Below, piece after piece: positions 3,190 through 29,339 of a stretch of 64,000 bases of DNA. The DNA lies in assembly GCA_050084515.1 (NCBI GenBank), contig CM114271.1, positions 8,680,001-8,744,000 on the forward strand, in the 5' to 3' direction. The notes below the pieces were generated by a model, which did not search any database, had not been told where the DNA came from, and saw only the letters and a list, made by a program, of their open reading frames with translations. Source of the DNA: Blasia pusilla (Eukaryota). The position numbers and the translations under genes are program-made. Position 1 is the stretch's first letter. Each line of letters starts with the position of its first letter.

Positions 3190-6100
3190 AGTGGTTTGTT
3201 TAAAATACTTCAAACTTCTTTGAGGGACAGAATTGGTTGGTGGATTCCTACTCCTACCTCCGACTCTCTTAAAACTACCAGCAACACATAGTACATGTGC
3301 TTACAAGGGAAATACCTTTTGCCACTTGTCTCTCTTTGGACAAAGTCATCACATGAACATGTGGGAAAGCAACAAATGTGCACCACATACACCCATGTGA
3401 CACTTGAATTTACAGTGTTATTCCTGACCCAATACAACCTTCCTATACCATTGCCACTCAAGACATCTTTCGTGGCGATGATCTCATTTTGCCTCCCGAG
3501 TGCGCATTCGCTTTGCTCTCTCCACCGTTGGCCTGCACATTCTATTTCTCTTCACCCCATTTCTGGACTCAAACAGAAATAATGGATTGAGATCATCCAC
3601 CTTCTCCGGGTACATGTTGACATCAATCTTGGGTTGAATAAAAAATGCGAGGGTCTCTGTAATGCGAACATGCTCCGAACTTCACCCGTCTACGAGTCTG
3701 AAACCGACACTTGTAAGATTGTCCACTTCGTCTTGAGTGCAGTTCGTGCCTGCGGCGATGGGCCAAATCATGGGGATATTCCCGGAAGCTCCAATGGCAG
3801 CCGGATAAGACTTCCGGAAAGCGCAAGATTCATTTCGGCAGAAGAAGTACTTCAATTGATCCCCGGTCCTTGTCAAACGATCAAAGGTTTTGAGTCCCCA
3901 AAACCCAGGCAGAGGTCGTCTAGTCCTTGTACAGTTCTTATTTAGGAAAGTGCCGCATGCTCTCCTAATGCCATCAGTTCCTGCCCTGCAGGTGGGTCCA
4001 CGTCCTGGGTTGCTCCGAGATATATGCCACCGTTTTAGGTTGCAATTCACCTCCATTATCGGAATCCCATATTGTTGAACCACCCTAGTGACAGGATGTT
4101 GCGAACTTCCAGCAACGGAGGGATTTTGAAATAAAACATTCACTGATTTTGGAGAAGTAACTCCATCACGGATTTGGGACGGGTCCGGGGTCCCCGAATA
4201 CCTGGGTGGTGTAATTTCCTCATCCAAATCAATCACCGGATTCGTTCTCGATCGCCTCTTCACCGCTTTGAAGTCAAGATACTTATCTGGTCTCCACGAG
4301 TCTCGTTCGACGGCTCTACCACCATCTCAGATGGGACATCTTGAAACCCGCCCACAAATATCCCCACCTATGTGTACGTCTTGCTCGAGTGGAGTTCCAC
4401 TACGCACCGGTTGAAGGCCGACATACAATTTTTCATCACAGATCTCACGGCCATTACGACATAGAGCTCATAGATCGACAGCCCTTTTCCTTTTGTTATG
4501 CCTTTTGTGAGAAAGATATGGGCATTTTCATGAACGTTAAATCCCTGCAACGACGGCAATGTTAGAAGGGAACGAAAATAACTCAGGATTCAAAGAAATA
4601 AGCGACCTGTCGGAACCAGACGGATTGCACGCCCGAGGCATCCCATGAACGACTCTGCGACCCGTCGGGTCGCGACGTGTTGTAACCTTAAACCCACCTA
4701 CTGCAACCCGTCGGAACCCGACGGATTGCAAGGCCGAGGCATCCCATGAACGACTCATTGACCCGTCGGGTCCCGACGGGTTGCACACTCGGGTTGTACC
4801 AAACATCAGGATGCAACCCGTTGGTTTGCACCCTCGGGCAACCCGTCGGTTTTCGTCGGGTTGCACACTCGGGCAACCCGTCGGTTTCCGTCAGGTTGCA
4901 CACTCGGGCAACCCGTCGCATCCGACAGCTTGCTTGGTTTCTTGGGTTTAAAATCCATATAATTCCCACGCTTCTCACCCTGAGCTACAACTTTACAAAC
5001 AATTCTCAACGTGAGCTTGATAAGACAAAATAGTGAACTCACCTGCCGCATGAAGTTTCCCCATTGTCTCATACGTACACTCCACCAACTCAACGAAGAG
5101 CACAACTCTTTGTACTTCCCCTCAATCGCATGCTTCCTCCTTCACCCATGAAGTTCTTCCTGGCATTCAATGGCCTGCTTCAAGGTTTTGCTGTCCTTGC
5201 AGCGTTGGAGTAGAGTGACATGCTCTATCCTCTTATTCTCCTTGATGCAAGATTTGGTGTACCGGGTCACAGACTGTTGCCAATGGAAGGCATCTGAACT
5301 TTCCCTCTCCGGTTGAACCTCTCCACCCCATAACACTTCCCGGATAGCAATCCACCCAAGTTGTGCATTGTCTGCCATGAACCCATAAATTTCCGGAGGT
5401 GGCCTTTTGTTTTCCTTCACCACCTCTAGTAAGAGTAACCAGCACATCTTCAAACTGCCAACGTCTTCTGCCTTTACTTCAAAGACAAATATAGTTTTGA
5501 GTCCCTTCTCCACATGGTCATAAACATGAGCACCCATCGTCAACCATCCGTTCAAAGACTCAGAGCAAATATCAAAGCTTACCCAACTCCCGTAAAGATC
5601 TTCCCTTCCTCATTCGATCTAAGATCGAGGCCACTCGAGGACTGTGGGTCGACATTTTGAAGACATAGGCCCTGGATCCTCGCCTCCTTGGCCCATGAAC
5701 TGCCATCTCTAAATGAATGGAAATCTGGAGTTGGCCTTGATTCTGGCGATGGCATCCATTTCGGCCGTCTTTCCATCCAGAACTCGTATGTGACGCAGCA
5801 AATTCCGGAAGCATTCAGGATCAGCGAAAAATGCGAGATTTACCCAAAGTTGTTTCTCCTCAACCGCCGTGATCTCGCCCTGTCCAGGGATTCCAAGCAA
5901 TTTTTCACAAATTTGTGATGCCGTTGTGAGCTTGATCGCTCCGGGCTTTGAACCCGGAGAGTTTCTGTACACCTCGGCTACTTTCTTTGCCACATCCTCC
6001 TTGATGTGTCTTTGAATTGCATCGGTCACAGGATGAGTGTGGGCGCCAACATGGACAACCAGCCTTGTATACTCTAACGTGGAGCCCAAGTCCTGGACAA

Positions 6101-7044
6101 TGAAAAATATGTATGCAAGACACCCTCCAACGCAGAAGGGCGATGCTTGACAATGAGGACATCGATGGCCTCCCGGTGGTATGGTGGCACCGACCTCGTA
6201 TGGAGTTTCTGCATTCTTGGGAGGCAATTGCGACGTATTGACTCGCCCGTTGCGCTCTAGAAACGGGCATGCTGGACTTCTACACTCCAAGGCTCCCACG
6301 CATTGGCGGCGGGAGACAATCCAAGGACCATCTGGAATTGAAGCACTGGTCCGTTGAAGCCCGCACCATCGATGACAATCAGACTTTCTGTCCATACCCT
6401 TCAGGCGTCCTCCATCCTTCTTTTGAGTAGGAGTAGCAAGTGGAGGCAACTCAAAAATGCAATTACCATCGTACATGGGCGGAAGCTCGTCGACAAGAAT
6501 GTGCTTGAACCTTTTCAAGGGCAGAGACGAAAGCAAACTATTGCCTGATACACGCAAGAGGAACGAGTAGGCGGACAGAGGGCCTGATTGGTGTCCGACA
6601 GATCCACTGAGGTTGATAACATCCGGAATCTCTTCAAGAAAAACAATATTGTTACGAGCGTGCGAAGTTGGAGTTGAAGCTGGATCTGCAGAGCTTGGAG
6701 TTGCAAATGTAGAGCTCGGAGCACTAGGAAATTCTAGACCGTCTACTTGGGAAACAGACGGTCAAAGGGGCCGTAAACTCTGTATTGACCATTTGCTAGA
6801 GGTAGGAGATTCCATACTTTACGGTCAGAGGTCACTGGCTGGACCGTCTCACCTATTATGTCTTTCGTACCGTCCACCATAACATCTTTGGATACAAAGA
6901 TGGTTCCAATTTGAAGAAAAATCGAACAGACAGAAAATTTTCATCCACTGCTATGAAAGACTCACGAGCTTGGGGTCCAATGATTTCCGATTGAGGAAAG
7001 GCCGCTTGATGACTGCCACAAGTGAGCTTAACATAATTATCCAT
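3190..7044 (-). pseudogene. MULE-type transposase with GCM-like Zn domain, DDE core and C-terminal SWIM finger (copy 1, frameshifted, one intron ~4546-5042)
   Basis: CVGALECRSPAC..HRCPHC..CVGGC..HVGAHTHP (WRKY/GCM1-like). Core WVSFDIC..GFMADNA..SDAFHW (D, D, CxxH-like). SWIM CSCDDF..FPCKH (~3295-3362). Donor CAG|GTGAG near 5042. Confidence 0.8.
4600..4930. repeat. Array of CAACCCGTCGG-N3-CCGACGGGTTG palindromes in the transposase intron (copy 1; equivalent array at 12590-12905)
   Basis: Repeated caacccgtcggtttccgtcgggttg-like units. Confidence 0.85.
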
Positions 7045-7309
7045 TCCAAGAAGATTCCAACGAGAGGAGACTGAGAATGAGAATGAGAATATTTAATTTA
7101 TAGTGAATAGGAAACAGATACTCCTGACAGATTTTTACTGACAAGATGAATTCGGTGGGTGACATTGTGTGACACAATGGATCCAATTCTGTAACACATT
7201 CTATTCTGTTGCAATATGTTACTGGATTTGGGAAGCAGAGGGTTGCGCATCACACTTGGAACGCGTCGGAGTCCTGGTAACTCAAAAATACCCGAAGCTA
7301 ACCGAAGCC

Positions 7310-7910
7310 TGCAACCCGTCGGCATCGCACGGGTTGCACGCTTCTGCTAAACATTGTCGAAGCAAGCAACCTATCGCTCTCCGACGAGTTGCTCGGATAC
7401 CTCGCCTTTTAGCCCAAAGACGGCGAGGCGTGCAACCCGTCTGTTTCCGACGGGTTACGCAAGGGCCTCGCCTTGTGGTGCACCCAGCCAGACTCTGACG
7501 ACTTGCACGGGAAGCCCTCATTCTTAACCCTTGATGAGGGAAGTGTGCAACCCAATGGTCTTTGACGGATTGCCCAAGATACGTCCCGTTCCCGTCCCAA
7601 ACACGGTGGAGGCGCGCAACATGTCGGTCTCCGACGGGTTGCGCGGGTACCTCGCATTCTTTTCCAAAGACGACGGAGGCGCTCAACCCGTGGGTCTCCA
7701 ACGGGTTGCACGTGCACGTGGCGAGGTACCCAGGATGGCGGAGGCGCGCAACATGTTGGTCTCCGACAGGTTGCGCGGGTACCTCGCGTTCTTTTCCGAA
7801 GACGACGGAGGCGCTCAACCCGTTGGTCTCCGATGGGTTGCTCGCGCACGTGGCGATGTACCCAGGATGGCGGAGCCGCGCAACCTATCGGACTCCGACG
7901 GGTTGCCATT
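7310..7910. repeat. Palindrome array in the divergent promoter region (copy 1; equivalent at 15197-15730)
   Basis: Multiple gcaacccgtcgg..ccgacgggttgc units, partly inside a ~120-bp tandem duplication. Confidence 0.85.
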
Positions 7911-7966
7911 TTTCACGTCCGGACTTCCGTAACATCCGGCACGTCGCCGTTGAAAGGACGACGGGA

Positions 7967-8003
7967 CCCAACGGTGAGCCTAACGGCTAGAAAAGTATAA
8001 ATA
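7967..8003 (+). promoter_or_regulatory. Two MSA-like (AACGG) elements plus TATA box upstream of the ParB-MTase gene, copy 1
   Basis: CCCAACGGTGA, CCTAACGGCTA, then TATAAATA at 7996-8003. Confidence 0.55.
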
Positions 8004-8294
8004 GGGCAGAAATCGCTCATTTCCGGTTTCTCATTTCGCGATCTTCATTCCTCACTCTCTCGCGGAGCAACTGATCAGATACAAAGGGGCATTTCACACG
8101 GCGACACATCGCGAGTCGATAGGAGGGATTGAGAGCGAGACTGTTCGACGCAGCGACAGCGAGACGGTTCAACCAAGCGATCGCGGGATCATTTGAGCTA
8201 CCCATCAAGGCAATTCGAGCTCCCATCTCGACATCAGCAAGGCGACTGATCAAGGGATTCATCGTGGACATAGGTGCAGGCATTTCCGAAAAAA

Positions 8295-10603
8295 ATGACG
8301 AGGAAAAAATCACAAGCCAACAAGTCTGGGAGCTTCACTCCGAAGTCCATTAGGACTCCTACGTTAGCTTCTCCTAGGCCTCGTTCGGCGAATGAAATTA
8401 GGCAGCAGGAAATCGAGGAGCGGGAAAGGGAAGCGGAGATGCACAACCAAGTGCTTCTTGCAAGACGTGTTCAAGAGGCGCTAGATAAACAGAACGCAGA
8501 GGCTGAGACGTCGCAGGCCTTGAAGAAAAGGATCGCGGCGACTTAAAAGAGAGAAAAGAAGCGTCTGGACGCGTCGGTGAGGAGGGCAGAATTGGCTAAA
8601 GCGAGGAGGGAAAAAGCGATAGCCATTGACGATAGCCCCGCCCGTCCAACTCCAAGTGTTGAGATGCGGGAAATGTCCCCCACAAAGTCCGGGGACACAA
8701 TCAACATTGTGGAAACACCAGAAGTTGAAATCGATGACGACGAGGTCATGAGGACCGCCAGCGTGGAGATGGTGGACATGGCCGAAGAAGCCGGAGGCCG
8801 GTCATTCTCGACTCCAAGCTCTGGTTACCGAGGAGGACTTGGAAAAGCTCGACACATTCTGGAGGATGCGAGACCAGGACTTCAGAAGGCAAGTTGAGGG
8901 CACGGAATTCAGCTGGATGAGGAATCTGCATTTCTTCATCTGGGATGGAAATCACAGTTTCATGGAGTGGACCAAGTTTGCGGAGGAGCGGACCAACTCA
9001 TTGGAGGCACATTTATGCGTGAAGGCAGTGGTCCTTCACCCATACCCTCATCACATGGCGACGGTGGAGATGGCAATGCATGCCATGAACACGTGAGTAT
9101 CTTTAACACTTTCGAAACTCGTCGGACTCCGATGAGTTGCTCGATTGATGAATGGGTTAGGTTTGTTTTTGCCAAAAGCAACTCGTCGGACTCCGACGGG
9201 TTGCTCGACTGCACGCTTTTTCGGATATTTTTTTAAGATTGCAACTCGTCGGACTCCGACGACTTGTTTGATTGACCATAGATTTAACTAGAGTTTGGCC
9301 CAAAGCAAATCGTCGGAGTCCGACGGGTTGATTTCGGCCAAAAACAGTTTCGAGGCAAGCAATCCGTCGGACTCCAACGGGTTGCTTTGGGGAAAAAACC
9401 TTCTAAACCTGCAGTGACTCGAACAACTCGTCGGAGTCCGACGAGTTGCATTCTTCAAAAAACATCCTCACAAGGCGGCCTATCGAGCAACCCGTCGGAC
9501 TCCGACGGTTTGCTTACCAAGCATTAGCAAATCTGAATGCAATCCGTCGGACTCCGACGGGTTGCATCATTTAGCTCGTTGCTAGAATCCAACCTTGAGC
9601 TGTGACGACCCGTCAGACTCCGACGGGTTGCAGGAGCCCATGTAATTTCCTGACGGGTTGAGTTTGGATGTGCAGGATTGTATCGGAGGGGAATGTCACC
9701 CATCACTGGATCCAGGACTGCGATCGGGTGAGGAAGGTGCTTACGACGAACCCGGGAGAGTACAAGGGGTTCTTGGGCGATGCCTTCGTCAATCAGATGC
9801 TTGCAAAGGGTGCTCAGATTAAGAAGAAAACTTGGGCAAATAAGTTTATTTCTCAAGATGCACCAGAACCATCCTTTTGCAAAGTTGAAGATACAGCCGT
9901 GAAGAAAAGTCTGCGACCGAGCCGGAGCGGAGGGAGAAGGTATCGCGTCTGAGCGCGCCAAATTCATCAAGCCGCAGATCTGCCGCAACGAAATACACGG
10001 CGAGCAAGATGCAGCGATACATCAAGATTCTCAACCCCGAACTTGGTCCGAGTTCTACAAGGAGCCAAGGCAATTATCAACCGCTGCGGAAGAGGGATGA
10101 AGATCCGCATGGTCGGATTGGGAGAAAGTGTCATTTGGATCGCGTGCATCGGTTTGCGTTGTCGGGATAAGCGAAGTTTAGGAGGATACGATCGGATGAA
10201 AATCGTCTCGAGGGCTCAAAGGCCTAGAAGAGGGCGCACACCATCCTCGGGTGTGTCGATCCGATGATCTTGCATTGGCTCGCGAATGGTCGTTCGGGAT
10301 GCGCATGGTAATCGGAAGTCCGTCTTTGGGACGGATGCAAGCGGAGCTCAGAAGATTAGAGCCCATTTCTCCAAGAGCAAACCTTGAAAGTTCTGGAGAT
10401 TTCGAGGTTTGGCTCGATGACATCCGGGACAAGCCAACCAAGAACCCATGATTCAAGACCATGTTCAAGGTTTGCGTCCTCCCTCAGGCAGAGCCTGACG
10501 AAGAAGTAGAGGGGAACAAACGGGATCAAGCGAAGAAGAAGCGAGATCTATAGGAGCATACGGCTGATTCTGTTCGACTAAAAGCTACCCAACGGATGGT
10601 CTT
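8295..10603 (+). pseudogene. ParB-like/methyltransferase gene, copy 1 (N-terminal half only, internal deletion, frameshifts)
   Basis: MTRKKSQANKS.. coiled-coil N-terminus and FFIWDGNHS at ~8944. Homologous to 16077-18978. Confidence 0.75.
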
Positions 10604-11010
10604 CAGGGAGGTGCGGTAAGAGGAGAGGAAGAGAGGAAGAGAGGAGAGAGGAGAGAGGAAACTACCTTCAACCGAAATAGATACTTTTTTTTGAAGAGAG
10701 TTTCCGCTGGGTTGAAGAGAGGAAACTTTTTGTGTGAATATTTTTGCACTGTTTTGTTCATTTATTAAACAATCCCACCGTTTTTTTTTCCTCTTCCATA
10801 TTTTGGCAACCCCTCTGAGTCCGACGAGTTGCAAATTGCACAAAATTTAGAAAAGTGAAAAATCAGTGGAATCATAAGTGTGGAACCAATCACTTTTTCC
10901 ATCCAAGGTCTGGAAAAAATCTATCATTTTCCCCGGGCTGAATAGAGTTCAAGCTCAAAGTGAAGGTTGAGGAAAAATAAAAGTACAATCTAAAACCTCA
11001 TTTTGCATCC

Positions 11011-14000: not shown

Positions 14001-14929
14001 GCATCGGTCACAGGATGAGTGTGGGAGCCAACATGAACTGCCACCCTTGTATTCTCTGAAGTGGAGCCCAAGTCGTGGACAATGAAAAATATGTATGCTA
14101 GACACCCTCCAACGCAGAAGGGCGATCCCTCACAATGAGGACATCGATGGCCTCCCGGAGGTATGGTGGCACCGACCTCGTATGGAGTTTCTGCATTCTT
14201 GGGAGGGAATTGCGACATATTGACTCGCCAGTTGCGCTCTAGATACGGTCATGCTGGACTTCTACACTCCAAGGCTCCCACGCATTGGCGGCGAGAGACA
14301 ATCCAAGGACCATCTGGAATTGAAGCACTGGTCTGTTGAAGCATGCACCATCGATGACAATCAGACTTTCTGTCCATACCCTTCAGGCGTCCTCCATCCT
14401 TCTTTTGAGCAGGAGCAGCAAGTGGAGGCAACTCGCAAGAGGAACGAGTAGGCGGACAGAGGGCCCGATTGGTGCCCGACAGATCCACTGAGGTTGATAA
14501 CATCCGGAATCTCTTGTGGAAAAACAACATTGTTACGAGCGTGCGAAGTTGGAGTCGAAGCCGGATCTGCAGAGCTTGGAGTTGCAAACGTAGAGCTCGG
14601 AGCACTAGGAAATTCTAGACCGTCTACTTGGGAAACAGACGAATTCAGGGGCACGCCGTAAACTCTGTATTGACCATTTGCTAGAGGTAGGAGATTCCAT
14701 ACTTTACGGTCTGAGGTCACTGGCTGGACCGTCTCACCTATTTTGTCTTTCGTACCGTCCACCCTAACATCTTTGGATACAAAGATGGTTCCAATTTGAA
14801 GAAAAATCGAACAGACAGAAAATTTTCATCCACTGCTATGAAAGACTCACGAGCTTGGGGTCGAATGATTTCCGATTGAGGAAGGGCCTCCAAATGACTG
14901 CCATAAGTGAGCTTAACATAATTATCCAT
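11011..14929 (-). pseudogene. MULE-type transposase with GCM-like domain, DDE core and SWIM finger (copy 2, frameshifted)
   Basis: ORFs 14738-14929, 14249-14605, 13550-14218, 13249-13806 (SFDICYR, FMADNAQ, DAFHW), 13043-13261, 11293-11913 and 11011-11286 (CSC..CKH). Confidence 0.8.
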
Positions 14930-15787: not shown

Positions 15788-15824
15788 CCCAACGGTCAGC
15801 CCAACGGCTAGAAAAGTATAAATA
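15788..15824 (+). promoter_or_regulatory. Tandem MSA elements plus TATA box, copy 2
   Basis: CCCAACGGTCA (15788-15798) and CCCAACGGCTA (15800-15810) match YCYAACGGYYA. TATAAATA at 15817-15824, ~250 bp before the ATG at 16077. Confidence 0.6.
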
Positions 15825-19916: not shown

Positions 19917-20709
19917 CCCTCGATCGCCATTTCCAAGCCAACTCATTCAGATCTCCTCCTCATTTCTTGCGTCCCTCCTTGAGCGTCTGAGTCTAGCCGC
20001 TACCTTTGAGTTTCCCTAAGCAACCGGTTGATCCCACGACCCCAAGTTCTCGCTCACCAAGGATTTGCTCTGATACCACTTGTCGCGCCCCTACTCTCCT
20101 TGAACGTCAATCTTTAGTATTGCGGAAGCGTACGTTCAGTAGGTCACGAACTCATCGCCGATCTAACACCCAAACACGCACTCGTTAGTCGGGTCCGGGC
20201 CAACCGGCGTCCAACCCACCGAGTCCTCAACTCGGCGTCTCATCAAGCTCAACCTTCCTTAGTTCCTAGTTTCCAAAACATGGCAAGTCCTTCAAGACTT
20301 GGAACAGACTTCCTGGTTAGTCCAGGGATCTGAAGCGGCACTTGCGCGCCTAGCGATCCCAACTGTTCAACGGTCCTCGGGGGAGTTCCGAACCGAGACC
20401 CAAGTAATTGAGTCGCGGGGTGGAATCCAAGAGGGATGTCTAAAATCGCCTCAATGGACTTGGTGCAGGTTTTCCAACCCAACCCCCAAACTCGCGTTCC
20501 GTTCCATGCCCTTGAGCCGCCCCGCGGCGCCCAAAGTGGGGTTTGGGTTCCAAGCACTCTCAGAGACCTTCCCCCTTTTTAGTACTTCTGAGGTTCTCTA
20601 ATAACCCCTCCCCTTAGGGAAAAGAGGGTCGGGCCCTTCATTGTGGCCCTCAACCCGACTCCACTTACAGTCGTTTTCGGGTTGTATCTCGGCCGCTGCT
20701 TATGCGTTT
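19917..20709 (-). mobile_element. Chromovirus fragment: partial 5' LTR (20081-20709), tRNA-iMet PBS (20067-20078) and a short internal piece
   Basis: GCTCTGATACCA is the reverse complement of TGGTATCAGAGC. The adjacent LTR matches 42750-43751 and 46832-47835. Confidence 0.85.
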
Positions 20710-23700
20710 TGGATCTGAGGACTCACCATCCAACCTCCCTCTTGGAGTGGATGCCTCCTATTGACCAGACATAGCCAACAGACACTAATCGGCAGATGCG
20801 TGCCAACTCGGCACCATCTCCTCAACACTCTCATCATGCCACCTAGCTCCACTCGCATCGCTCTGGCTCGTGCATGGATTATAGCTCAACCCGTCTGCAT
20901 CCTGGTTTAGATGTCATGGGCGATGGACAACCTGAAAATCATACTCATGCAATAGGAGTGACCATCTGGCAAGCTTCCCTGTAAGCTTGTCAAACTCCAT
21001 CAACCATCTCAGTGGCTGATGATAAATGATGAGCGAGAAAGGATTCCCGAACAAATAACATCTAAAATGGGCCACTGCCCATACTGCAGCTAAGCACTCC
21101 CCCTCATAGGAACTCTACTTTGCCTCCGCAGCGTTGTTTGAGCAGCTCGAATATGCCACAACAAACTCCTTCCTCTCATCATCTCTCTGAGTGAGCACCG
21201 CTCTTAATCCCAACACACTTCGGTCTGTATGTAACTGGAACGGACAACCACGCATAGGTCTCCTCAAAATGGGCAAGGACATCAACCTGTCCTTGAGCTC
21301 CTGAAATGCTCGCTCTTGATCATCTCCCCAAAACCACTCCTTGTCCAACCTAGTCAACAAAGTTAGTGCCTTCGCAATCGCACTAAAGCCCTTCACGTAC
21401 CATCGGTAGTAGTTTGTCAATCCCATAAAACCTTGAACTCGACTCACATCTATAGGGCCGGCAATGCGTGTTGTGGCCTCCACCTTTGTGTGTTGAACTC
21501 CAATACCCCTTGATAAATGATGGCATCCAAGGTGCTCAATCTGGTCATGGAAGAACCTGCACTTGCCTAGAAGTAACTTCAGCCCATGTAATTACAATCG
21601 TCAAAACACCTCCTCCAGATGTCTCTCATGCTCCTCAACAGTAGCACTGAAGACAATAATGTCATCGATGTAACATCTCGCATAATCCGAACTAGCCAAA
21701 ATCTTATCCATAACTCGCTGAAAACCCGTAGGGGCGTTCTTCAACCTAAATAGTAAGAACCGCCACTAGTACAAACAATCCATCCCGAAAGGGTGTATCC
21801 CCCAAAATGTTGTCTTCTCCCTATCTTCCACTCGGATGGGCAACTAATGATAGCCACACGCACATCCAAACAACTAAAGATTCTTGCATGTCCCACCGCA
21901 TCAAAGATCTCCTCACGAGTAGGCATAGCATAGCAATCGACCTTCGTATGCCGATTGATAGGACGATAATCTCCACACATCCGCCTATCCGTCCATTGGC
22001 CATGCATGTCCTTCTTTGCCGGCATAACTGTGGTAGATGCATACTCTCCAAGCGATCTCTCCACCAATCTAGTCTCAGCCAAGTATCGACTCCTACTCTG
22101 AATCAAGGCTCGCTCCATGTCGGAATACTTGTAGGGTCGTCGAAAGATAGGAGTATCACTATCCAACTTGATCCGAATACATGGACCCTTCAGTGTGCCT
22201 AAGTCATGCATACTATATGCAAAATGGTCCCTAAATCTCCACAATAATTTCAATATTCATCTCCTCTCCGCTCTTGTCAACCTAGGAGCAATCATCGGCT
22301 CCCAAGTCTCTCTCATGACCTTTAGAGAAGAGGAGGGTGGTGGTTGCTAACTAGCAACCTCTAGAGTAGCAACATGCGCTCCCAAATCGAACACCAACTC
22401 TCTAGGCACTCCACGATGTCCTGCATCGGCAAAATGAACTGCCATCTCTCTATAATCTTGTGACATGTCCCATGAAGTTCATGGATGCCTCTCCATCACC
22501 ATCGCGTCCCCTGGCATTGTCTTACCCATCCCGGTAGACGTTGCGATGCAAAGTGGATGTAATGTCACACACGCCTCTTGCATCCATCTTTGCTCAGCCA
22601 AACCAAGACTGAACACCCAAGTAAGATAGTTCAGGTCCATAGCCTGACCCAATACATGTTTGTGGGATGCCTGTGCTATCACAGGCACCGTCACCGTACC
22701 TGTAGAGAACCCCATAGCTTGCTCTTGCTCGTCAACATTGAGCTCCACCAGTGTACCTGCCTGCTCATCCCATATCATTTCTGGTCCTCCCTAACAAAAA
22801 GCATGAGATGCCGGAAAACTCACCAACACAGGAAATCAGGCCCACCCGATTGGCCACTGCCAACGGTGGTACATCATCACGAGTAACAACCTGAGATCGC
22901 TACCCTGGATCAAAGATCGCATCCACCGTAAGTAGTGATAGTTTGTGGACTCCATCATGAGCCCGCCTTAGTAACTTGGATGGTAAAAGGTTCATCCATC
23001 ACAATCGTGGACGGTGTGCGCGCAATCCAACACTCGCCGCATCCAACATCACCGTAAGTCCTATCCACGACTGCACTTTATGTACACTCACCATCACTCG
23101 GGCTTGAGTGTTACCTAAAAATGGGATGTTCTCTAAAATGTAAGCTGGAGAACATCGTTGGGTAGTCTGCAAGTGTCGAAGAATGCGCAACAGCTCCCAA
23201 ACCATCGCCGACCTCGGGTCCTGCAAACCAAGTCCCCGACCTCCCAAAGAATGACCCTGACATGGCCACCCTGCCACCACCAAGTGTATCGGACCAACCA
23301 TATTCATATGTGGCGCCCCCAACAACGAATATCGCCCATAAATACATGCTGATATCCCTTGACTGCAGACATTGGCAATAACTGAGGATATTGCAGGACT
23401 AGTCTCGACACGTGATGTAATGAGACTCTACATGCAATCTCATCTCTCTCAACATACAAGTACTATTGTACTCGTACTTTGACCTACAACACTGGAACCA
23501 ACGTTGTACTAATCCCTCCAAAGAGATCTAGTATACGTACACCCTCCTCAGGATACTGCCACACAATCGATGTGGTGTCCAAGGGTGTCACCGTCTCTAC
23601 TCTTAGAGCACGTGGTAACTCTATCCCATCTCGCTCTAGAGCATAGGCTTGGCTCCACGCCTACCTCGTGAGCTCATCTGCTCTCCTCTACAAATCGATG

Positions 23701-25980
23701 CTCGTCCCCCATAAAGCTGAAGAAGTGTGGCCATCAGATGTAGCCATGCTCGTCATTGCATGCCACTCCTCAAGACTATTCTCTGCATCGGCGTTCCCCT
23801 CCAATAAATCTCCAGGCCAACATAATGTGCCATAATAAGAAGCAACTATTGTGGTCGACCCTTGGAGTGAACCATCAAGTCTCCCTGCATACTACACGGG
23901 TAGCTGAGTAGCTCATCCCTCGCCTGACTGCTAACCTGATTGAAAGGAGGCTATCTCCTCCCAAAAGTCAAGTGTGAACCCTAGAGGATACAATACCGTA
24001 GCCCCTACCAAAACATCATAAGACTTGGCCGGTGTCACAACCGCTTGTGTCGGCACCATCGCACTATCCATAGGATGATCGGGCCGAATCCTCTCTGCAA
24101 TCTCATCGCGAGTCATGAACTATGTCGGGGATGTGCCTCCCTGTGAAGTCTGAATCTGGAATGGACATGGAGTGATCTCACACTTCCGCAATCCCATCGT
24201 TACACATGCCGCCTTCCCCAACATAAGGAGTTGTGCTCCTGAATCAAGTAGCACTCTCCGCGGTCGATACATGATTTCGGATGGACCAACCAACTAGAAA
24301 ACTCCATGTCGGTTGTCTAAGACAACAATTCTTGGTGAGACGGCTGCACGCTCTATCGCTGGTCTAGTTGGAAACTCCACCACTCTAGCCATTGCTGCAT
24401 GCCAACTCTCTGTGGCTCTCGTCTCGAGCACTTGCTCTAAGGGTACCTCTAGAACATCTCCTTTGCGAGTCTCAACACTAGAAGAACCAAACTCATTGCT
24501 CTCACAAAGCGTCGCCGCCAACCGGAAAACCTCAGTTGGTCGACCTCCACAAGTCAACAAATCTCTAGCCGTAAATAGTGGGATGCTACACAAAGCCATT
24601 TCCATCTAGATCCGGAAGTCGACGTTGTCCCCTACATCTCATGTAGATGTCTATTGGGCCATCATAGTCTCAAGGCGTTGCTCCAACTGAGCTATCCCCG
24701 CCAAAGCTGCCTCTGATGCAAATGTTGCACTCGCTTTGGCAGGTGGTGGGGTCCTGCCTCCACCACATCCTCGTCCTCCTACACCTCGTCTTCTGCCACC
24801 TCCACGTCCTTGACCTCCCTCTAGGCGCAACTCAGGTGGAGCTCAAAACATCTCTCACGTGTGTGCCCATATCTCTGGAAATGATCACACTAAGGTAAGG
24901 GTGGCCTCCCCTGGGCCGCCTCATATACAACTGATGGTGATGCCTGTAGTCCACTCTAATGTCTTCAATCTTGCTGACAATGTGATCCTCCACACGTCCA
25001 ACAAGAAATCCCTAAGCCCTGCTACCCAACGTATGACAGAATTGGTCGTGGTCGTTGCTCCTGGGAAGCTCCCGTAGCCCTCGGTCCCATGACTCTATCT
25101 CGAGTTGTGCGCTGCAACACTCATGGAGACACCATCACTCGTGTCATCTCCCTCGAAGATGATCTGCATGTCGTCAAAACTCTCTCCTCAAGTATTTTGA
25201 GCTGAATCCGCTTCGCCAACAAAAATACAGACTTGAGAGTAGGCAAACCAATATGTAAGAGAGTTGCATCTTGCACTCTCTTCTGCAACTCGCAGTCTAG
25301 CATCGCATACCAAAATTGAATTTCTTGTTCCTCCGTCACACCCTGAGTCGCTATGATCAACCGTTGGAGCCGTGCATAGGCCTCTAGAAGACTCTCTCCG
25401 CTCTCCGTTGAAACTCATGAATCGACTTTAGCACGGGTCCTCACCCCTTGATAGTTCCTCCCCAACTCTCGGAAGAACTCAACCAATGGGTTGAACATGG
25501 GTGATACTCGACTGGTCACAGTTGTAAGACTCGGGTCGACAACTCCTCCAAGTGTCTCCTCTTCGCGGTTAGTGGGTGCTTCTGCAGGCGCCACATCATA
25601 CATCGCGCGCCCTATGAGGAACATATATCCTGCAGACCAAAATAGTCCCCACGCCTCGATCTCCGTCTCATGGAGAATCCAAAACTTGTGGTAATCATCC
25701 ATGGGAGGGCCCTCCAGATGTTGAAAAAGTCCCTTCCACGCCATAAAGGGGTTGAATCTCTCCTGGTTCCGCATCCTTTGTGCATCGCACCAACTATCAA
25801 ACTCCTCCATAAAATCATCCAACTCAATGGTTTCCACGAGGCTTGAGAACCGTCCGAGTCCCTTCATGGACCCATACGTATTGCGATCATCCATGTCCCA
25901 CAACAAAAGTGTGGCAACAATCGCGACACTCCATGGCCTCTTGGATAACTCAGAATCCGCTAATGTCACCTTTAGAGTAA
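20710..25980 (-). mobile_element. Gypsy-DNMT retrotransposon, copy B (gag-protease-DNMT-RT-RNaseH; both ends truncated)
   Basis: gag-like 25415-25969. Protease VLLDSGAQ ~24235-24255. DNMT 22600-23545. RT 21500-22250 (CYIDDII). RNaseH CPFQLHTD..EFVVAY. Confidence 0.9.
22600..23545 (-). pseudogene. C5-DNA methyltransferase domain (copy B)
   Basis: LDLFGGIS, GWPCQG, YILENI, AHRPRL and VLGQAMDL motifs. Confidence 0.9.
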
Positions 25981-26199
25981 CTAGTGTTGACTGGAGGGAG
26001 CGAGGATGAGCTCTTCAACCTCCAGTGCGTCAAGAGGTCGCTAAAGTGGAGGACGGCACAATCGTGGATCATAAAAAATGAGTACCCACTCCGATCCGCG
26101 ACAAATCAGATTCGGGTAAGGCTCAATTCCTGTACAATAATTTCAATTATCTTATAATGATGTGTAGAATGAGAGTCAATCTGGTTTTTTTGTCCGTGA

Positions 26200-26600
26200 G
26201 CAACCCGTCGGAAGGCGACGGGTTGTCGGGTTTAGAGCGTGTTCTTCGGGCTTAGAGCGGCCAGGCTCGGCTGAGAGCAACCCGTCGGTTTCCGACGGGT
26301 TGCATCTTTCCCACATAGACAGGGAAAACGGCGGTGTACCTACAACCCGTCGGAACCCGACGGGTTGCAATTGCTTTTGTGTTTTCCCAGTTGATTTTGG
26401 TTTTTGGATGCAACCCGTCTGATAGCGACGGGTTGCTCTCAGGCGAGCATGGGCTGCTCTAGGCCAGCAACCCGTCGCCTTCCGACGGGTTGCATCCAAA
26501 AACCAAAATCAACTGGGAAAACCCAAAAGCAACTGCAACCCGTCGGGTTCCGACGGGTTGGTCCGGGACAAAACAACCCGTCGGACTCCGACAGGTTGAT
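26200..26600. repeat. Palindrome array and ~220-bp hairpin in the last intron of the MTase gene
   Basis: 26342-26437 is inverted at 26466-26560 (ttcccagttgattttggtttttggatgc / gcatccaaaaaccaaaatcaactgggaa). Confidence 0.85.
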
Positions 26601-29295
26601 CCAAAGTCAGTTATTGAAAATGTTCTCAAGGCGACTTCTTTAGTTTCTGACATTGTTTCCAACGTGCTGATTTACAGATGGACCACTCCTACGTCTACTG
26701 CTTCGTTCGGCCCGAGCACAATTTCCAGGTGTTCAAGATCCAGGATCCTGTGGATCCATGCTCAGATGGGTACAGCTTAGATAGTTTGTACAATTCCCCC
26801 CCGGGAATTTACATGCAAGACAGTACCCCACTTCTGGGAGGAAGGGAAAAGTCGCCAGCCCTGATGCAAACGCTCATCGAGCTCTGCTCAAGGCCGGGTG
26901 ACTTGGTGTTCGACTTAGTGGGACTTTCAGGGGCAAGTATCAAAGGCGCCTGGCAGAGTGGCAGGAACATTCTCTGCCTCGAGGGAAGGCAGGAACTGTT
27001 TGACCTTTGCAAGGAGGCAAAGGCAGAATACGAAAGGCTCGTTGGGGCGTACAACTCTCCACCAAAGCCGAGAGCTCCGGTTCCAGAGCCACCCTTGGTA
27101 GTGACTCCATCGTCACTTCCAACGATTCCCAAAATCAGGAGGGCAAGGCCGAAAGTGATTTTGCAAGAGCTCCCAGACGATGACGAGTGAGTTCAAAGAA
27201 CTCAGCGACTTGACGGCTTATTGCGGCGTTTGGAGTAGGGAGTTTTTGATAATGAGGCAAAAGATTTCATATAATAGATCAAATGTACAGATTCGAGCTT
27301 TTTTCGGATGATATAAAGCAGAAGATTTTTTCGATCGATGGTGCTTGTAAATGTTTGCTGATCATTTTTCTTTTCGAATGTGATCGTCTATGTACTCCAC
27401 GGACTTCTACTTTGCAACCCGTCGGATTTCTCCTGCTTGCAACTTTCACTTTATGACCACTGTAACCCGTCGGATTTCTCCTCCTTGCAACTTTTCGCTT
27501 TTTGACCACTGCACCCTTTTTACCACCTCCAGGCAACCTCTCTGATTCCGACAAGTTGCCTAATCGGACCCTTTCCCTGTTGGTCCAACTTAAGAGGCAG
27601 TCTGGCGGGCTTCTTCCCTTGGCACCTTCCCCTCAACTCGTAAAGGCAGGCGTAGGCTTCTTTTCTTCTCTCAGACGTGTTGGATTCCTTCTACCTGTGC
27701 GATTGCCATAATGGTATTACCGGGGACGGAGCAGATATTGATTCTGGATGTGTTGTATAGCGATGTGTATGCGCATAACAAGCCTCATGGGCCTGGTATC
27801 GGCACTTACACTAGAAGACGTTGTTCGCGCTGTATCTGATCAGGGGCCAGGGGCAGAATGCCCCAACATATATAGATTGTTCTTGAGCACACACATTGCA
27901 AGTATGTCACCTTGCTTATGTCTGATGATGCATGCACCGTCTTGAAGTGCCAGACTGCCTCCAAACAGGTCGTGTCTTAACATAGAGAAAAGGTTCTTTA
28001 TCAGACCTAGTACGTGTAGAACATCTTCGATCATGATGTCACATTGCAGAGCGTACAAGGTATACTGCCGAGGAAGGCGGTGGGACTCGAGACAGGTTAC
28101 ATAGGACCGTTATGGTGTACCTAGGGGGGGGCCAAGGCTCTCGAATTCGCCAACATTTTTTATCCGCGTCTACAATCGGCCAGAGGAGCCACTTGAATCC
28201 CAAGACATTCCTTTGGTGCTGTCACCGAGGAGAGTTAGGAGTAAATTTTTAGATGACGAGGTTGAAGAAATCATAGACTAGGTGAAATGTAAATTTCCGA
28301 GGTTCCTTCGGAGGTAATAAAGGACAAGATTTTTTCAACCCATAATGGTGTTTGTAAAAGTTTGCTGGAATATGTTTTTGGACTTGTGGATTGTGTTCTT
28401 TTAGCTACTGAGAATTACAATTCTGCAACCCGTATGATTCCGACTTTTTGCTTTTTGCCCAGTGCAATTTTTTAACCATTTCCAGGCAACTTGTCAGATT
28501 CCGACAGGTTGAGTGCTTGAGTGATCCGACTCTATCCCGGTGAGACCAACTTCTGGCGCATTGTGGCGGGCTTCTTGACTTTTGGCTCGTTCCCCTTCAT
28601 TCGTCCAACCAGTTGTAGGCTTCTTTTCTTATCTAAGATGTGCAGGATTGCTACTACCTGTCGGATTGCCATTTCGGATTCCCAACCTGTTAGATTGTCG
28701 TGGGTGCAGGGTGGAAGAAAATCACTTCTAAAAATCTTTCCTTTCTTATGGTGAGCTTTCTTACGGGTTGGGAGGGGTGCAGCTTCTTGGTTTCTCAGCT
28801 TTAGGATCTGAATGAAGGGACATCAGTTCCTCTTTACTCCAGACAGCTAACAATATTTTGGTTCAATTATCCTCTCATGTGTTCATATTTCACAAAGTTG
28901 GTCTTGAGTAGACACCATTCATAACCAACAGAAAGTTCGTTATGGGGCAATTCAGGGGAGGCCATGATGCAGGCAACAATCCCTGCAAAAAGAGAGGTTG
29001 GCATCCGGGTGGTCCTCCAACAAAAATACCCATGGGCACTGCTTTTTGTAGACCGAGACAGGTAATGTTAAGAAACTTAGGCTCACATGGAGAGTGATGG
29101 AAAAATGTTTGTAGTGATCTTATGATGTCTACTTTTTTTTTGCCCCCAGGAAAAAGGAGGTTTTTTTAGGGCCAAATGTGGACCACTACCTACTCTCTTC
29201 TAAAGATTTCCTGAATTTGAAAGCAAACAAAATTTTCAAATGTCATAAAGTTTTGAAGAGAGGAGGCGGATTTGGCCCTTTTTTTTTAAGAGAGA

Positions 29296-29339
29296 CTCTC
29301 CTCTCTTCCTCTCTTCCTCTCCTCTCTTACTCTCTCCTG
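29296..29339 (-). repeat. Right terminal inverted repeat of the MULE
   Basis: Reverse complement CAGGAGAGAGTAAGAGAGGAGAGGAAGAGAGGAAGAGAGGAGAG resembles the left ends at 2784 and 10604. Confidence 0.65.

What the first reader, a model, noticed from the sequence alone, without database searches (positions are those of the whole stretch)
4600..28690. Dozens of 25-27-bp palindromes (GCAACCCGTCGG-N3-CCGACGGGTTGC) fill the non-coding compartments of the MULE: parS-like loading sites?
Seen: the palindrome clusters in the transposase intron, the divergent promoter, two ParB-MTase introns and the right subterminal region, in both copies. I did not see it in exons or outside the element. Established: bacterial ParB proteins load at palindromic parS sites, and transposases also bind iterated subterminal motifs. 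Inference: a cis-acting recognition array for the element's ParB-MTase or GCM-like domain, i.e. a sequence-specific self-targeting system analogous to VANC anti-silencing in Arabidopsis VANDAL MULEs.
Basis: partly seen in the sequence, partly recalled or inferred. Interest (0 to 1): 0.8.

Follow-up and report, generated by a model that had tools for sequence, protein, structure and literature searches.

The report
Transposon's own palindromic protein-docking arrays
A dead plant "jumping gene" carries about sixty copies of one 27-letter palindrome in its promoter and introns, most likely as docking sites for a bacterial-type ParB-methylase protein that it encodes; this has been proposed for algal transposons but never tested.

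Summary
The palindrome GCAACCCGTCGG-N3-CCGACGGGTTGC occurs 42 times at 3 or fewer mismatches (0 expected) and 62 times at 6 or fewer. All copies lie at 2981-28512, in five clusters of a tandemly duplicated MULE-like element. None lies in mapped exons, the nested retroelement or the other 35 kb.

Within arrays the palindromes stay 71-85% alike while the spacers are at shuffled level. 27 of 38 intervals are 63-69 bp.

The flanking gene has a true ParB N-terminal fold (Z 9.5) plus a weak N6/N4-methylase tail, an architecture shared with liverwort and fern paralogs.

20 of 80 distant relatives from metagenomes carry their own, different palindrome arrays beside the ParB exon, against 1 of 160 shuffles. 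Related proteins share related palindromes.

Best reading: element-specific docking sites, probably for the ParB-methylase (0.5). The transposase is the main rival.

Binding is untested, no DNA-reading domain was found, and both copies here are dead. The idea is already published for algal transposons, so this is a new member of a known kind. The scan's earlier notes held nothing on it.

The parts
2784..2837 (.). Left terminal inverted repeat (GA-rich) of copy 1
   Evidence: Matches the reverse complement of 29296-29335 (30/30 core); the similarity between copy 1 and copy 2 starts here.
2981..3007 (.). Single degenerate palindrome about 195 bp inside the left end (copy 1)
   Evidence: 4 mismatches.
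3210..6761 (-). MULE-like transposase gene, copy 1. ORF blocks: 5709-6761, 5142-5609, 3682-4326, 3210-3551.
   Evidence: SWIM finger E 0.0046, below cut-off; Atlas features: 23 of 30 hits are clusters carrying PF10551 MULE, score 0.94. Pfam itself gave no MULE hit.
4602..4933 (.). Array A1: 6-8 palindromes between two transposase ORF blocks (probable intron)
7258..7906 (.). Array B1: 9 palindromes in the spacer between the divergent transposase and ParB-methylase genes, ending about 90 bp before TATAAATA at 7996-8003
8274..10603 (+). 5' part of the ParB-methylase gene, copy 1. Degenerate: about 520 bp of the ParB exon is missing, it has a frameshift, and it is cut off at 10603.
9093..9675 (+). 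Intron of the ParB-methylase gene filled by array C1 (palindromes 9114-9661)
   Evidence: GTGAGT donor, CAG acceptor and in-frame join; homolog P0008 residues 263/264 bridge 9090 to 9677.
10608..10660 (.). Left terminal inverted repeat of copy 2
10806..10832 (.). Single palindrome near the left end of copy 2
11011..14825 (-). Transposase gene, copy 2 (ORFs broken; 101-bp gap relative to copy 1)
12570..12911 (.). Array A2
15143..15727 (.). Array B2 (divergent promoter region, copy 2)
16056..20019 (+). ParB-methylase gene, copy 2. ParB-fold exon 16927-17399, middle region 18014-19564 with an in-frame stop at 18563-18565, motif-IV-like exon 19621-20019.
17421..17999 (.). Array C2, in the intron after the ParB exon; holds 92-117-nt higher-order inverted repeats
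20080..26100 (-). Nested retroelement (gag-like, C5-DNMT-like, RT, RNase H) inserted in the last ParB-methylase intron; boundaries approximate; not part of the system
26200..26599 (.). Array E: 7 palindromes between the motif-IV exon and the motif-I exon; includes 95-nt arms that are 95% complementary
26677..27190 (+). Last exon of the ParB-methylase gene (motif I; N6_N4_Mtase-like)
   Evidence: Pfam E 8.9e-5, 23 bits, cut-off 26.7; maps to P0121 residues 1057-1180; acceptor TTTACAG ends at 26676.
27414..28512 (.). Four degenerate palindromes or half-sites in the right subterminal region
   Evidence: 5 mismatches each.
29296..29340 (.). Right terminal inverted repeat (GA-rich)

Best explanation
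The 27-bp palindromes are cis-acting recognition sites that the transposon keeps for a sequence-specific protein of its own. That protein is most probably a dimer of the ParB-fold/methylase-like accessory protein, whose promoter and introns they fill.

Inferred mechanism. Dimers dock on the two 12-bp half-sites. The arrays, spaced at about 64 bp (about six helical turns, so all sites face the same way), assemble a multi-dimer complex at the bidirectional promoter and inside the gene. From there the protein does one or both of two things. It may regulate the element's own promoters, as the plasmid ParB relative KorB does (KorB biology is recalled). Or it may use the NTP-gated ParB domain to spread from these sites and mark or protect the element's chromatin through its methylase-like domain. 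Either would give self-specific action with little effect on the host genome, as with VANC.

Shown here: the array anatomy, the conservation of palindromes against spacers, the ParB fold, the conserved ParB-plus-methylase architecture, and the lineage-specific co-variation of palindromes.

Inferred: who binds, NTP dependence, spreading, and any methylation.
For: 1) Enrichment and confinement to the element's non-coding parts.
2) Within arrays the palindromes are 71-85% identical pairwise. Spacers, compared in their best orientation, are 0.50-0.56 against 0.45-0.51 for shuffled spacers. The palindrome, not the repeat unit, was preserved.
3) 27 of 38 centre-to-centre intervals in arrays B, C and E are 63-69 bp (my count).
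4) The ParB exon model has pLDDT 89.7. All 12 top Foldseek hits are ParB or Noc. VIA-align gives Z 9.5, rmsd 2.0 A over 95 residues to Caulobacter ParB 42-137, with sulfiredoxins lower at Z 5-6.5. The motif W-D-G-N-H-R is nearly invariant in 44 sequences.
5) The full-length liverwort homolog P0121 maps collinearly onto the window, from the ParB exon to the methylase motif-I exon. At least 31 Riccia paralogs exist.
6) 20 of 80 metagenome loci that encode relatives have a palindrome family of 3 or more sites, against 1 of 160 shuffled loci. Each lineage has its own sequence: L041 GGTATTGGCG-N4-CGCCAATACC at an exact 64-bp period, L006 with 14-16 sites, L003, L028, L040 and others. In the 10 array-bearing loci of 8-20 kb other than L047 (L039, L040, L042, L043, L045, L046, L061, L065, L066, L069, L071 minus none), the sites lie within about 2.7 kb of the ParB exon, upstream and downstream, as arrays B and C do here. 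L047 is the exception.
7) Proteins 77-83% identical (L040, L065, L066) share the AACTTTTGG core. L045 and L061 (54% identical) share TATGGT. Proteins 45% identical or less have unrelated palindromes.
8) The terminal inverted repeats, which the transposase must recognise, are GA-rich and unrelated to the palindrome.
9) Literature. Red-algal Plavaka (CACTA-type) elements have tandem arrays of inverted repeats next to their ParB-domain accessory gene (preprint section 8). What that case and this one share is the ParB domain, not the transposase superfamily.
Against: - No binding data of any kind exist.
- No DNA-reading domain was identified. The region after the ParB domain is helical, but its superposition on ParB's HTH domain is poor (rmsd 5.5-6.7 A).
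- Co-variation with lineage would be seen for any element-encoded binder, including the transposase.
- Array A lies inside the transposase gene, and single sites lie near both ends, which fits a transposase role.
- The methylase assignment rests on sub-threshold Pfam hits. Motif IV is D-[LMI]-P-[ST]-G, not (D/N/S)PP(Y/F/W) (the canonical motif is recalled), so catalysis is doubtful.
- Since the two copies split, arms (39/526, 7.4%), spacers (55/770, 7.1%) and the rest of the element (399/6079, 6.6%) have diverged equally. No constraint acts on these dead copies.
- 60 of 80 relatives' loci showed no array, though most of those are only 1-2.5 kb long.
- Arrays C and E contain recent inverted duplications, so part of the pattern comes from repeat turnover.
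Confidence: 0.5

Rival explanations
1. The palindromes are binding sites for the MULE transposase, through its N-terminal zinc-finger region. They would act as subterminal or internal sites for transpososome assembly, or as the cis-network through which the transposase activates the element's own promoters.
For: Array A sits within the transposase gene and array B in the shared promoter. Single or degenerate sites lie about 195 bp from the left end and 0.8-1.9 kb from the right end. The lineage co-variation fits any element-encoded binder. A 2026 preprint (abstract only) reports that an Arabidopsis Mutator transposase is by itself a sequence-specific transcriptional activator of cognate copies.
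Against: The termini are unrelated in sequence to the palindrome. Most sites are 1.8-10 kb from the ends. In relatives the arrays hug the ParB exon on both sides. Only 2 weak transposase matches were found among the 80 loci. A comparable repeat-plus-ParB arrangement is described in a different transposon superfamily. The zinc-finger or GCM-like domain was not confirmed by Pfam.
Confidence: 0.2
2. The arrays are a structural by-product with no dedicated binder. Hairpin- or cruciform-prone GC-rich palindromes would spread within non-coding DNA by slippage, template switching and inverted duplication, and are tolerated only in introns and spacers. Alternatively they are bound by a host factor.
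For: Higher-order inverted duplications are recent: 95-nt arms at 95% complementarity in E, and 92 nt at 90% in C. Whole-unit indels of about 64 and 132 bp separate the two copies. There has been no constraint since the copies split.
Against: Slippage copies spacers together with palindromes, yet the spacers are at random-level similarity while the palindromes are kept. Spacing is regular. Independent lineages keep different palindromes at the same place relative to the ParB exon. The motif is absent from the nested retroelement and the other 35 kb of the window.
Confidence: 0.15
3. The intronic arrays act as RNA. Once transcribed they would form many short hairpins and, in arrays C and E, hairpins of about 100 bp. 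These could be small-RNA precursors through which the host silences the element, or could affect its splicing.
For: Arrays C and E lie in introns of a transcribed strand. The stretch 26330-26575 folds at -123.6 kcal/mol against -39.3 for shuffles, z -21 (folded with DNA parameters). RdDM targets the non-coding repeat regions of VANDAL elements (abstract).
Against: Array B and the relatives' upstream arrays lie in promoter DNA. That position does not show them to be untranscribed, but it is not explained by intron RNA. The conserved unit is a symmetric 12+3+12 site, typical of dimeric DNA binders. Long hairpins exist in only some arrays and look recent. No expression data could be obtained.
Confidence: 0.1

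Closest known systems
Plavaka (CACTA/EnSpm-type) giant transposons of red algae, with accessory gene PAG3 (ParB-like N-terminus plus 2OG oxygenase) and adjacent tandem arrays of inverted repeats (Petroll et al., bioRxiv 10.1101/2025.02.11.637652, section 8 read; cited as Curr Biol 2025)
   Same: A ParB-domain accessory gene carried by a DNA transposon, with tandem arrays of inverted repeats beside it. The authors make the same proposal, that the protein binds and modifies its own element. Those accessory genes are also reported in Chondrus Mutator elements.
   Different: Here the ParB domain is fused to a methylase-like domain rather than an oxygenase. The host is a land plant (nearest named relatives are a liverwort and a fern). 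The carrier is MULE-like. The arrays also fill introns. Sequence homology to PAG3 was not tested because no PAG3 sequence was on hand, and that preprint's figures and supplements were not visible.
ParB-like plus DNA methyltransferase accessory protein of the 21.5-kb Sola1-1_Ec32 transposon of Ectocarpus (Genome Biol 2025, PMC12477816; passages read), and the ParB-HTH-fused 'chlorophyte-type Dam' methylases noted by Iyer et al. 2015 (PMC4738411; passages)
   Same: The two-domain architecture (ParB-like plus N4C/N6A-type methylase), about 1100-1200 residues, on the strand opposite the transposase, proposed to bind and epigenetically modify its own transposon.
   Different: The passages read describe no recognition repeats for that element. 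It belongs to a different superfamily (Sola1) and lineage (brown alga). Homology to the window's protein was not tested.
VANC anti-silencing proteins of Arabidopsis VANDAL (MULE) elements (Hosaka et al. 2017, PMC5735166; Sasaki et al. 2023, PMC10398659; abstracts read)
   Same: The targets are short motifs that form tandem repeats in non-coding regions of the element and differ between related elements. The action is self-specific.
   Different: VANC is not a ParB-fold protein. No VANC homolog was looked for or seen here. The VANC abstracts do not describe the targets as 27-bp palindromes. Hypomethylation cannot be tested from sequence.
Bacterial and plasmid ParB-family clamps with palindromic loading sites (ParB/parS, Noc/NBS, KorB/OB), and phage ParB-CTPase fusions to N6_N4 methylases (PNAS 2025, PMC12704722; passages)
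   Same: The N-terminal domain has the same fold (Z 7.5-9.5). The binding sites are palindromic and iterated. The ParB-plus-N6_N4-methylase fusion is reported as frequent in phages.
   Different: No HTH DNA-binding domain, C-terminal dimerisation domain or ParA partner was shown. The sites are 27 bp with 12-bp arms. The P-motif reads G-N-H-R, not G-E-R-R (the bacterial motif is recalled). The setting is a eukaryotic nucleus and a transposon.
En/Spm TnpA and its iterated 12-bp subterminal motifs (recalled; a link between TnpA and transposases is in the abstract)
   Same: An element-encoded accessory regulator binds many short motifs, in direct and inverted orientation, in the element's non-coding DNA.
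   Different: TnpA motifs are subterminal. Here most sites are internal, in the promoter and introns. The protein families are unrelated.

Membership tests
Transposon-borne ParB-domain accessory gene with adjacent inverted-repeat arrays (Plavaka PAG3 / Sola1 ParB-methylase kind) | ParB-like domain in a gene carried inside a DNA transposon, separate from the transposase | tested here: met
   ParB-fold exon 16927-17399 lies between GA-rich terminal repeats at 10608 and 29340, divergent from a MULE-like transposase gene.
Transposon-borne ParB-domain accessory gene with adjacent inverted-repeat arrays (Plavaka PAG3 / Sola1 ParB-methylase kind) | [quoted passage not shown] | tested here: met
   Arrays B (upstream), C and E (introns) in the window. 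20 of 80 relatives' loci also have arrays, against 1 of 160 shuffles.
Transposon-borne ParB-domain accessory gene with adjacent inverted-repeat arrays (Plavaka PAG3 / Sola1 ParB-methylase kind) | Fused or neighbouring nucleic-acid-modifying enzyme domain | tested here: inconclusive
   N6_N4_Mtase matches are below Pfam's 26.7-bit cut-off: window 23.0 bits, P0121 23.7, P0119 26.2. P0146 carries a precomputed PF01555 hit. Motif order is IV then I, but motif IV is D-[LMI]-P-[ST]-G.
Transposon-borne ParB-domain accessory gene with adjacent inverted-repeat arrays (Plavaka PAG3 / Sola1 ParB-methylase kind) | Sequence homology to the published algal proteins | not tested
Bacterial ParB/parS (ParABS) partition system | ParB N-terminal CTPase fold | tested here: met
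   VIA-align Z 9.5, rmsd 2.0 A, 95 residues against 7bm8_A residues 42-137. 11 chains have Z of 8 or more, all ParB, KorB or Noc. Foldseek E-values are only 1.8e-3 to 0.05.
Bacterial ParB/parS (ParABS) partition system | Helix-turn-helix DNA-binding domain directly after the N-terminal domain | tested here: inconclusive
   The model of P0008 has a confident helical region at 274-400. Superposition on ParB NTD plus HTH gives rmsd 5.5-6.7 A at Z 8.5-8.9, which is no better than the N-terminal domain alone.
Bacterial ParB/parS (ParABS) partition system | Conserved P-motif arginine (GxxR) for NTP binding | tested here: inconclusive
   G110-N111-H112-R113 is nearly invariant in 44 sequences. Residue-level equivalence to GERR was not checked in a structural alignment.
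Bacterial ParB/parS (ParABS) partition system | ParA ATPase partner and a 16-bp parS-type site | tested here: not met
   The sites are 27 bp (12+3+12), not 16 bp (the parS length is recalled). No ParA-like family appeared among the 34 window ORFs scanned against Pfam. ParA was not searched for specifically.
Mutator-like element (MULE) | MULE/Mutator DDE transposase with a C-terminal SWIM finger | tested here: inconclusive
   Atlas features: 23 of 30 hits are clusters carrying PF10551, top score 0.94. SWIM scores E 0.0046 at 16.9 bits against a 19.6 cut-off. Pfam gives no MULE hit and the word-index search found nothing.
Mutator-like element (MULE) | Long terminal inverted repeats and a 8-11-bp target-site duplication (the TSD length is recalled) | tested here: inconclusive
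   A GA-rich inverted repeat of about 35-50 bp is present. No duplication was seen around the composite. That is expected if the outer ends come from two different copies.
VANDAL/VANC anti-silencing system | VANC-family protein | not tested
   No VANC sequence or profile was searched.
VANDAL/VANC anti-silencing system | Target motifs form tandem repeats in non-coding regions and differ between related elements | tested here: met
   This is likeness of mechanism only.
Dispersed MITE or satellite | The motif is common outside the element family | tested here: not met
   One weak half-site in the 35.5 kb beyond 28512, none in 1-2980, and one weak half-site in the 6-kb nested retroelement. Zero exact matches in the metagenome, prokaryote-genome and viral collections. 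A scan of the host genome was not possible because no genome is held.

The most novel reading that the evidence does not exclude
Land-plant transposons run a eukaryotic counterpart of the bacterial parS/ParB (or KorB) system. An NTP-gated ParB clamp, fused to an amino-methylase-like domain, loads at element-specific 24-27-bp palindromes arrayed on one face of the helix. It then slides along the element and writes (6mA or 4mC) or blocks a chromatin mark. This gives each transposon lineage a private 'self' address that co-evolves with its protein and lets it escape or tune host silencing.
Probability: 0.3. Interest if true: 0.85.

Novelty: new member of a known kind. Interest (0 to 1): 0.55.

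Why it matters
If the ParB-methylase does dock on these palindromes, transposons of plants and algae would have a programmable self-recognition module taken from phages or plasmids. It would consist of a private DNA address plus an enzyme that acts only at that address. That bears on how transposons evade silencing with little host damage. It would extend the reach of the ParB NTP-switch into eukaryotic chromatin. It could also yield sequence-specific epigenome-editing tools.

This analysis adds three things to the published proposal. First, a land-plant, MULE-borne case with exact sites. Second, evidence that the palindromes, not the repeat units, were preserved. Third, more than ten independent lineages whose palindromes differ and track the protein. 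Together these provide ready pairs of protein and site for binding tests.

Tried and rejected
- Whole-genome scan: no genome is held for this window.
- Run search: no RNA holder was listed. 14 rows hold part of the stretch, none holds half of its words, and none was laid. No conclusion was drawn.
- Word-index homology searches with the ParB exon and the transposase core (both set to 'longer'): nothing scored.
- Pfam on 34 window ORFs: no ParB, MULE or GCM/WRKY family. The only hits were sub-threshold SWIM, N6_N4_Mtase, DNA_methylase and DUF1015.
- Pfam on 20 homologs: 0 families.
- Profile against PDB sequences: only a ribosomal protein at E 0.14.
- Search for an HTH after the ParB domain: unresolved.
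- Exact palindrome in metagenome, prokaryote-genome and viral collections: 0, 0, 0. Half-sites at 2 or fewer mismatches reach two or more in only one of the 80 related loci (L034, 2 hits), so relatives do not share this sequence.
- Window transposase and methylase ORFs against the 80 loci: 1 locus each for four ORFs and none for the others. Too divergent to say which loci are MULEs.
- Pfam on 36 ORFs of long loci: only copia-type RT and integrase in L040 and a bacterial solute-binding protein in L058. Some weak loci may therefore not be plant elements.
- Continuation of the interrupted retroelement, or a target-site duplication, after the right end: none found.
- Selection since the copies split: none detectable.
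- Earlier notes of this scan: none for this genome; one unrelated phage note by sequence.
- First attempt at search for related loci with the 44-sequence alignment failed for lack of a conserved stretch. A 9-sequence alignment worked.
- The Bostrychia preprint's figures and supplements, which may show its repeat sequences, could not be seen.

Full report
OBSERVATION

The pattern GCAACCCGTCGG-N3-CCGACGGGTTGC matches 42 times at 3 or fewer mismatches. None of 100 dinucleotide-preserving shuffles gave a single match. Allowing 6 mismatches in the 24 specified positions gives 62 sites, all between 2981 and 28512. Of 120 half-sites at 2 or fewer mismatches, 119 lie in that range. One of those is a weak site inside a nested retroelement (20886), and the single one outside is a weak site at 54827.

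The sites form clusters:
- A: 4602-4933 and 12570-12911
- B: 7258-7906 and 15143-15727
- C: 9114-9661 and 17421-17999
- E: 26200-26599
- Single sites at 2981 and 10806
- Four degenerate sites at 27414-28512

ANATOMY OF THE ELEMENT

The window is eukaryotic, with microsatellites and LTR-type retroelements.

Stretches 2784-10603 and 10608-18980 are head-to-tail copies, 88-95% identical. Both begin with a GA-rich repeat (2790-2837, 10614-10660). Its inverted partner lies at 29296-29335. The fuller copy therefore runs from about 10608 to about 29340. It is interrupted at about 20080-26100 by a retroelement (RT/RNase H at 21115-22256 on the minus strand). A second copy of that retroelement (121-2783) abuts the left end of copy 1.

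On the minus strand lie the transposase ORF blocks.
- Protein-language-model features place block 5142-5609 with MULE transposases. 23 of 30 hits are clusters carrying PF10551, top score 0.94.
- A SWIM finger is weakly seen at 3210-3551 (E 0.0046, below cut-off).
- Pfam and a word-index search gave nothing more.
'MULE-like' is therefore probable, not proven.

On the plus strand, divergent from the transposase, lies the accessory gene.

THE ACCESSORY GENE

An exhaustive phmmer search with the exon 16927-17403 found 118 relatives. The best has E 1e-20, and identity is 37% or less. None of the 20 scanned carries a Pfam family. The named ones come from the liverwort Riccia sorocarpa and the fern Adiantum nelumboides. 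Riccia has at least 31 long paralogs, as expected for a transposon gene.

The full-length Riccia protein P0121 (1207 aa) maps collinearly onto the window: 16966-17397, 18191-19198 and 26684-27091. P0011 and P0123 add 19711-19929.

The last exon and its Riccia counterparts match the C-terminal (motif I) part of Pfam N6_N4_Mtase at E 9e-6 to 9e-5. All of these scores are below the curated cut-off.

The upstream motif-IV position reads D-L-P-S-G in the window and D-[LMI]-P-[ST]-G in 20 or more Riccia paralogs. It reads D-V-P-F-G in a fern protein. This is not the canonical (D/N/S)PP(Y/F/W), which I recall rather than tested. Catalytic competence is therefore uncertain.

An AlphaFold model of the exon, built on 44 sequences, has mean pLDDT 89.7.
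- Foldseek's 12 best PDB hits are all ParB or Noc, though at E 1.8e-3 to 0.05.
- VIA-align gives Z 9.5, rmsd 2.0 A over 95 residues to Caulobacter ParB residues 42-137. KorB and Noc score Z 7.3-8.4, and sulfiredoxins Z 5-6.5.
- The motif W-D-G-N-H-R is nearly invariant.
The ParB N-terminal (CTPase) fold is therefore established.

A model of the 570-aa homolog P0008 shows a confident helical region after that domain. Its likeness to ParB's HTH domain is unresolved.

Both copies in the window are dead.
- Copy 1 lacks about 520 bp of the ParB exon, changes frame, and stops at 10603.
- Copy 2 has an in-frame stop at 18563-18565, the retroelement insertion, and broken transposase ORFs.

WHERE THE ARRAYS SIT

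- Array C fills an intron exactly. The ParB exon ends at a GTGAGT donor (9093) and the next exon starts after a CAG acceptor (9675). The join is in frame. Homolog P0008's residues 263/264 bridge 9090 to 9677.
- Array E lies between the motif-IV exon and the motif-I exon, whose acceptor ends at 26676.
- Array B lies between the two divergent genes and ends about 90 bp before a TATAAATA at 7996-8003.
- Array A lies between two transposase ORF blocks. That fits an intron, but I could not verify it.
- No site lies in any stretch to which homologs map.

ARE THE PALINDROMES MAINTAINED?

Within each array the palindromes are 71-85% identical pairwise. The spacers between them, compared in whichever orientation fits better, average 0.50-0.56 identity. 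Shuffled spacers average 0.45-0.51. A few spacer pairs are recent duplicates (maximum 0.89-0.95).

Simple decay of a tandem 64-bp repeat would erode palindrome and spacer alike. Here only the palindrome was kept.

Spacing is regular. 27 of 38 intervals in arrays B, C and E are 63-69 bp (my count). That is about six helical turns.

Arrays C and E also hold higher-order inverted duplications: 92 nt at 90% and 95 nt at 95%. The segment 26330-26575 folds at -123.6 kcal/mol, z -21. Array turnover therefore includes inverted duplication.

Deviations from the consensus are mostly C-to-T and G-to-A changes (91 of 172), in CpG and non-CpG positions alike.

Since the two copies separated, arms (39/526), spacers (55/770) and the rest of the element (399/6079) have diverged equally, at 6.6-7.4%. 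This fits dead copies drifting. It also means the constraint is inferred for the ancestors, not for these copies.

COMPARATIVE TEST

A scan of metagenome contigs with a 9-sequence ParB-exon alignment returned 80 loci that encode relatives. At least one is a plant contig, since L040 carries a copia-type RT. A few weak ones may be bacterial, since L058 carries a solute-binding protein.

None shares the window's palindrome. However, 20 of 80 loci have their own palindrome family of 3 or more sites. For shuffled loci the figure is 1 of 160. A stricter criterion gave 8 of 80 against 0 of 400.

Examples:
- L041: GGTATTGGCG-N4-CGCCAATACC, six sites at a 64/64/64/64/65-bp period
- L006: TGAGGTGCCG-N4-CGGCACCTCA, 14-16 sites
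- L003: GGTTTGGGTC-N4-GACCCAAACC, at 32-35 bp
- L028: a 75-bp period
- L039, L040, L042, L043: CCAACTTT(T/C)G-N4-C(A/G)AAAGTTGG, with six sites 0.8-1.6 kb upstream and six sites 2.1-2.7 kb downstream of the ParB exon
- L066, L069, L071: similar
- L011: sites directly after the exon

After merging near-identical loci, this is about 13 distinct loci. Two of them (L047, L063/L064) are doubtful.

The 60 loci without arrays are mostly 1-2.5 kb, too short to judge. Among loci of 4 kb or more, about half show arrays (my reading).

Proteins that are 77-83% identical share a palindrome core. The pair at 54% identity shares TATGGT. Pairs at 45% or less have unrelated palindromes.

So a palindrome array on either side of the ParB exon is a conserved trait of this gene family, and the sequence of the palindrome evolves with the lineage.

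INTERPRETATION

The data favour a cis-acting site kept for an element-encoded, sequence-specific dimeric DNA binder.

I favour the ParB-methylase as that binder, at about 0.5, for three reasons.
1) The arrays hug its exon in all lineages.
2) The element's termini, which the transposase must recognise, are unrelated to the palindrome.
3) Red-algal CACTA-type elements, with a different transposase, show the same pairing of a ParB-domain accessory gene with adjacent tandem inverted repeats.

The transposase remains a serious rival at about 0.2. Co-variation cannot separate linked genes. Array A and the near-terminal sites fit a transposase role. A recent preprint abstract also reports a Mutator transposase acting as a sequence-specific activator of cognate copies.

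A binder-free structural origin (about 0.15) and an RNA-hairpin role (about 0.1) explain less of the pattern.

Loading, NTP gating, spreading and methylation are all inference.

COMPARISON WITH WHAT IS KNOWN, AND NOVELTY

- ParB-CTPase folds fused to N6_N4 methylases are reported as frequent in phages (passages).
- ParB-HTH-fused Dam-type methylases were noted in chlorophytes and chytrids (passages).
- A 1104-aa ParB-plus-methylase protein, divergent from the transposase, was described in an Ectocarpus Sola1 element. The authors suggest that such proteins bind and modify their own transposon (passages).
- The Bostrychia genome paper reports tandem inverted-repeat arrays next to the ParB-domain gene PAG3 and makes the same proposal, citing VANC (section 8).

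My two literature searches for the ParB/Mutator/palindrome combination found no land-plant case. These searches cover open-access papers and bioRxiv only.

The finding is therefore a new member of a known, experimentally untested kind. It adds a land-plant, MULE-like carrier, exact sites, and comparative evidence for maintenance and co-variation.

VERDICT

- Observation: confirmed.
- Interest: 0.55.
- Most novel reading not excluded: a eukaryotic parS/ParB-like self-addressing system (probability 0.3, interest if true 0.85).

Noticed in passing
window 121-2783 (+) and about 20080-26100 (-): Two copies (85% identical) of an LTR-type retroelement. Its internal region carries a C5 cytosine DNA-methyltransferase-like ORF (PCQ and ENV motifs visible; Pfam DNA_methylase E 2e-4, just below cut-off) between gag-like and RT/RNase H ORFs. 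One copy is cut by the MULE's left end. The other is nested in the last intron of the ParB-methylase gene.
   Followed up: partly
window 19621-20019 and homologs P0011, P0121 and others: The methylase's motif-IV position is D-[LMI]-P-[ST]-G in the window and in 20 or more liverwort paralogs, and D-V-P-F-G in a fern homolog. It is conserved but non-canonical, which could mean an inactive enzyme or an unusual substrate.
   Followed up: partly
window 26343-26560: Array E contains a near-perfect long inverted repeat (95-nt arms, 95% complementary, 28 nt apart). The surrounding 246 nt fold at -123.6 kcal/mol, z -21. If transcribed with the intron it would form a hairpin of about 100 bp.
   Followed up: partly
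window 10603/10608 junction: The two MULE copies lie head to tail. Copy 1 is cut off inside the ParB-methylase gene exactly where the left terminal repeat of copy 2 begins. No target-site duplication was seen around the composite. How this arrangement arose is unexplained.
   Followed up: partly
L041:3-347; L003:7-195; L040:12465-12743: Relatives' arrays have periods of 64 bp (L041), 32-35 bp (L003), 51 bp (L040), 75 bp (L028) and about 138 bp (L006). Most are close to whole numbers of helical turns. The helical-phasing reading is my inference and was not tested statistically.
   Followed up: no
window 20080-20709, 42750-42980, 46831-47461; 37872-38983 vs 45723-46826: Further dispersed repeats (77-84% identical) shared between the start of the nested retroelement region and the right half of the window. 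Possibly LTRs or another element. Not analysed.
   Followed up: no
window 35107-36618 and 56711-57385: Tandem repeats with units of 349/317 bp (4.4 copies) and 211 bp (3.2 copies), plus several long (GA)n tracts.
   Followed up: no
window 29362-29802 (+): An integrase-core ORF (rve, E 3.6e-11) lies directly after the MULE's right end. It shows no detectable similarity to the DNMT-bearing retroelement copies.
   Followed up: partly
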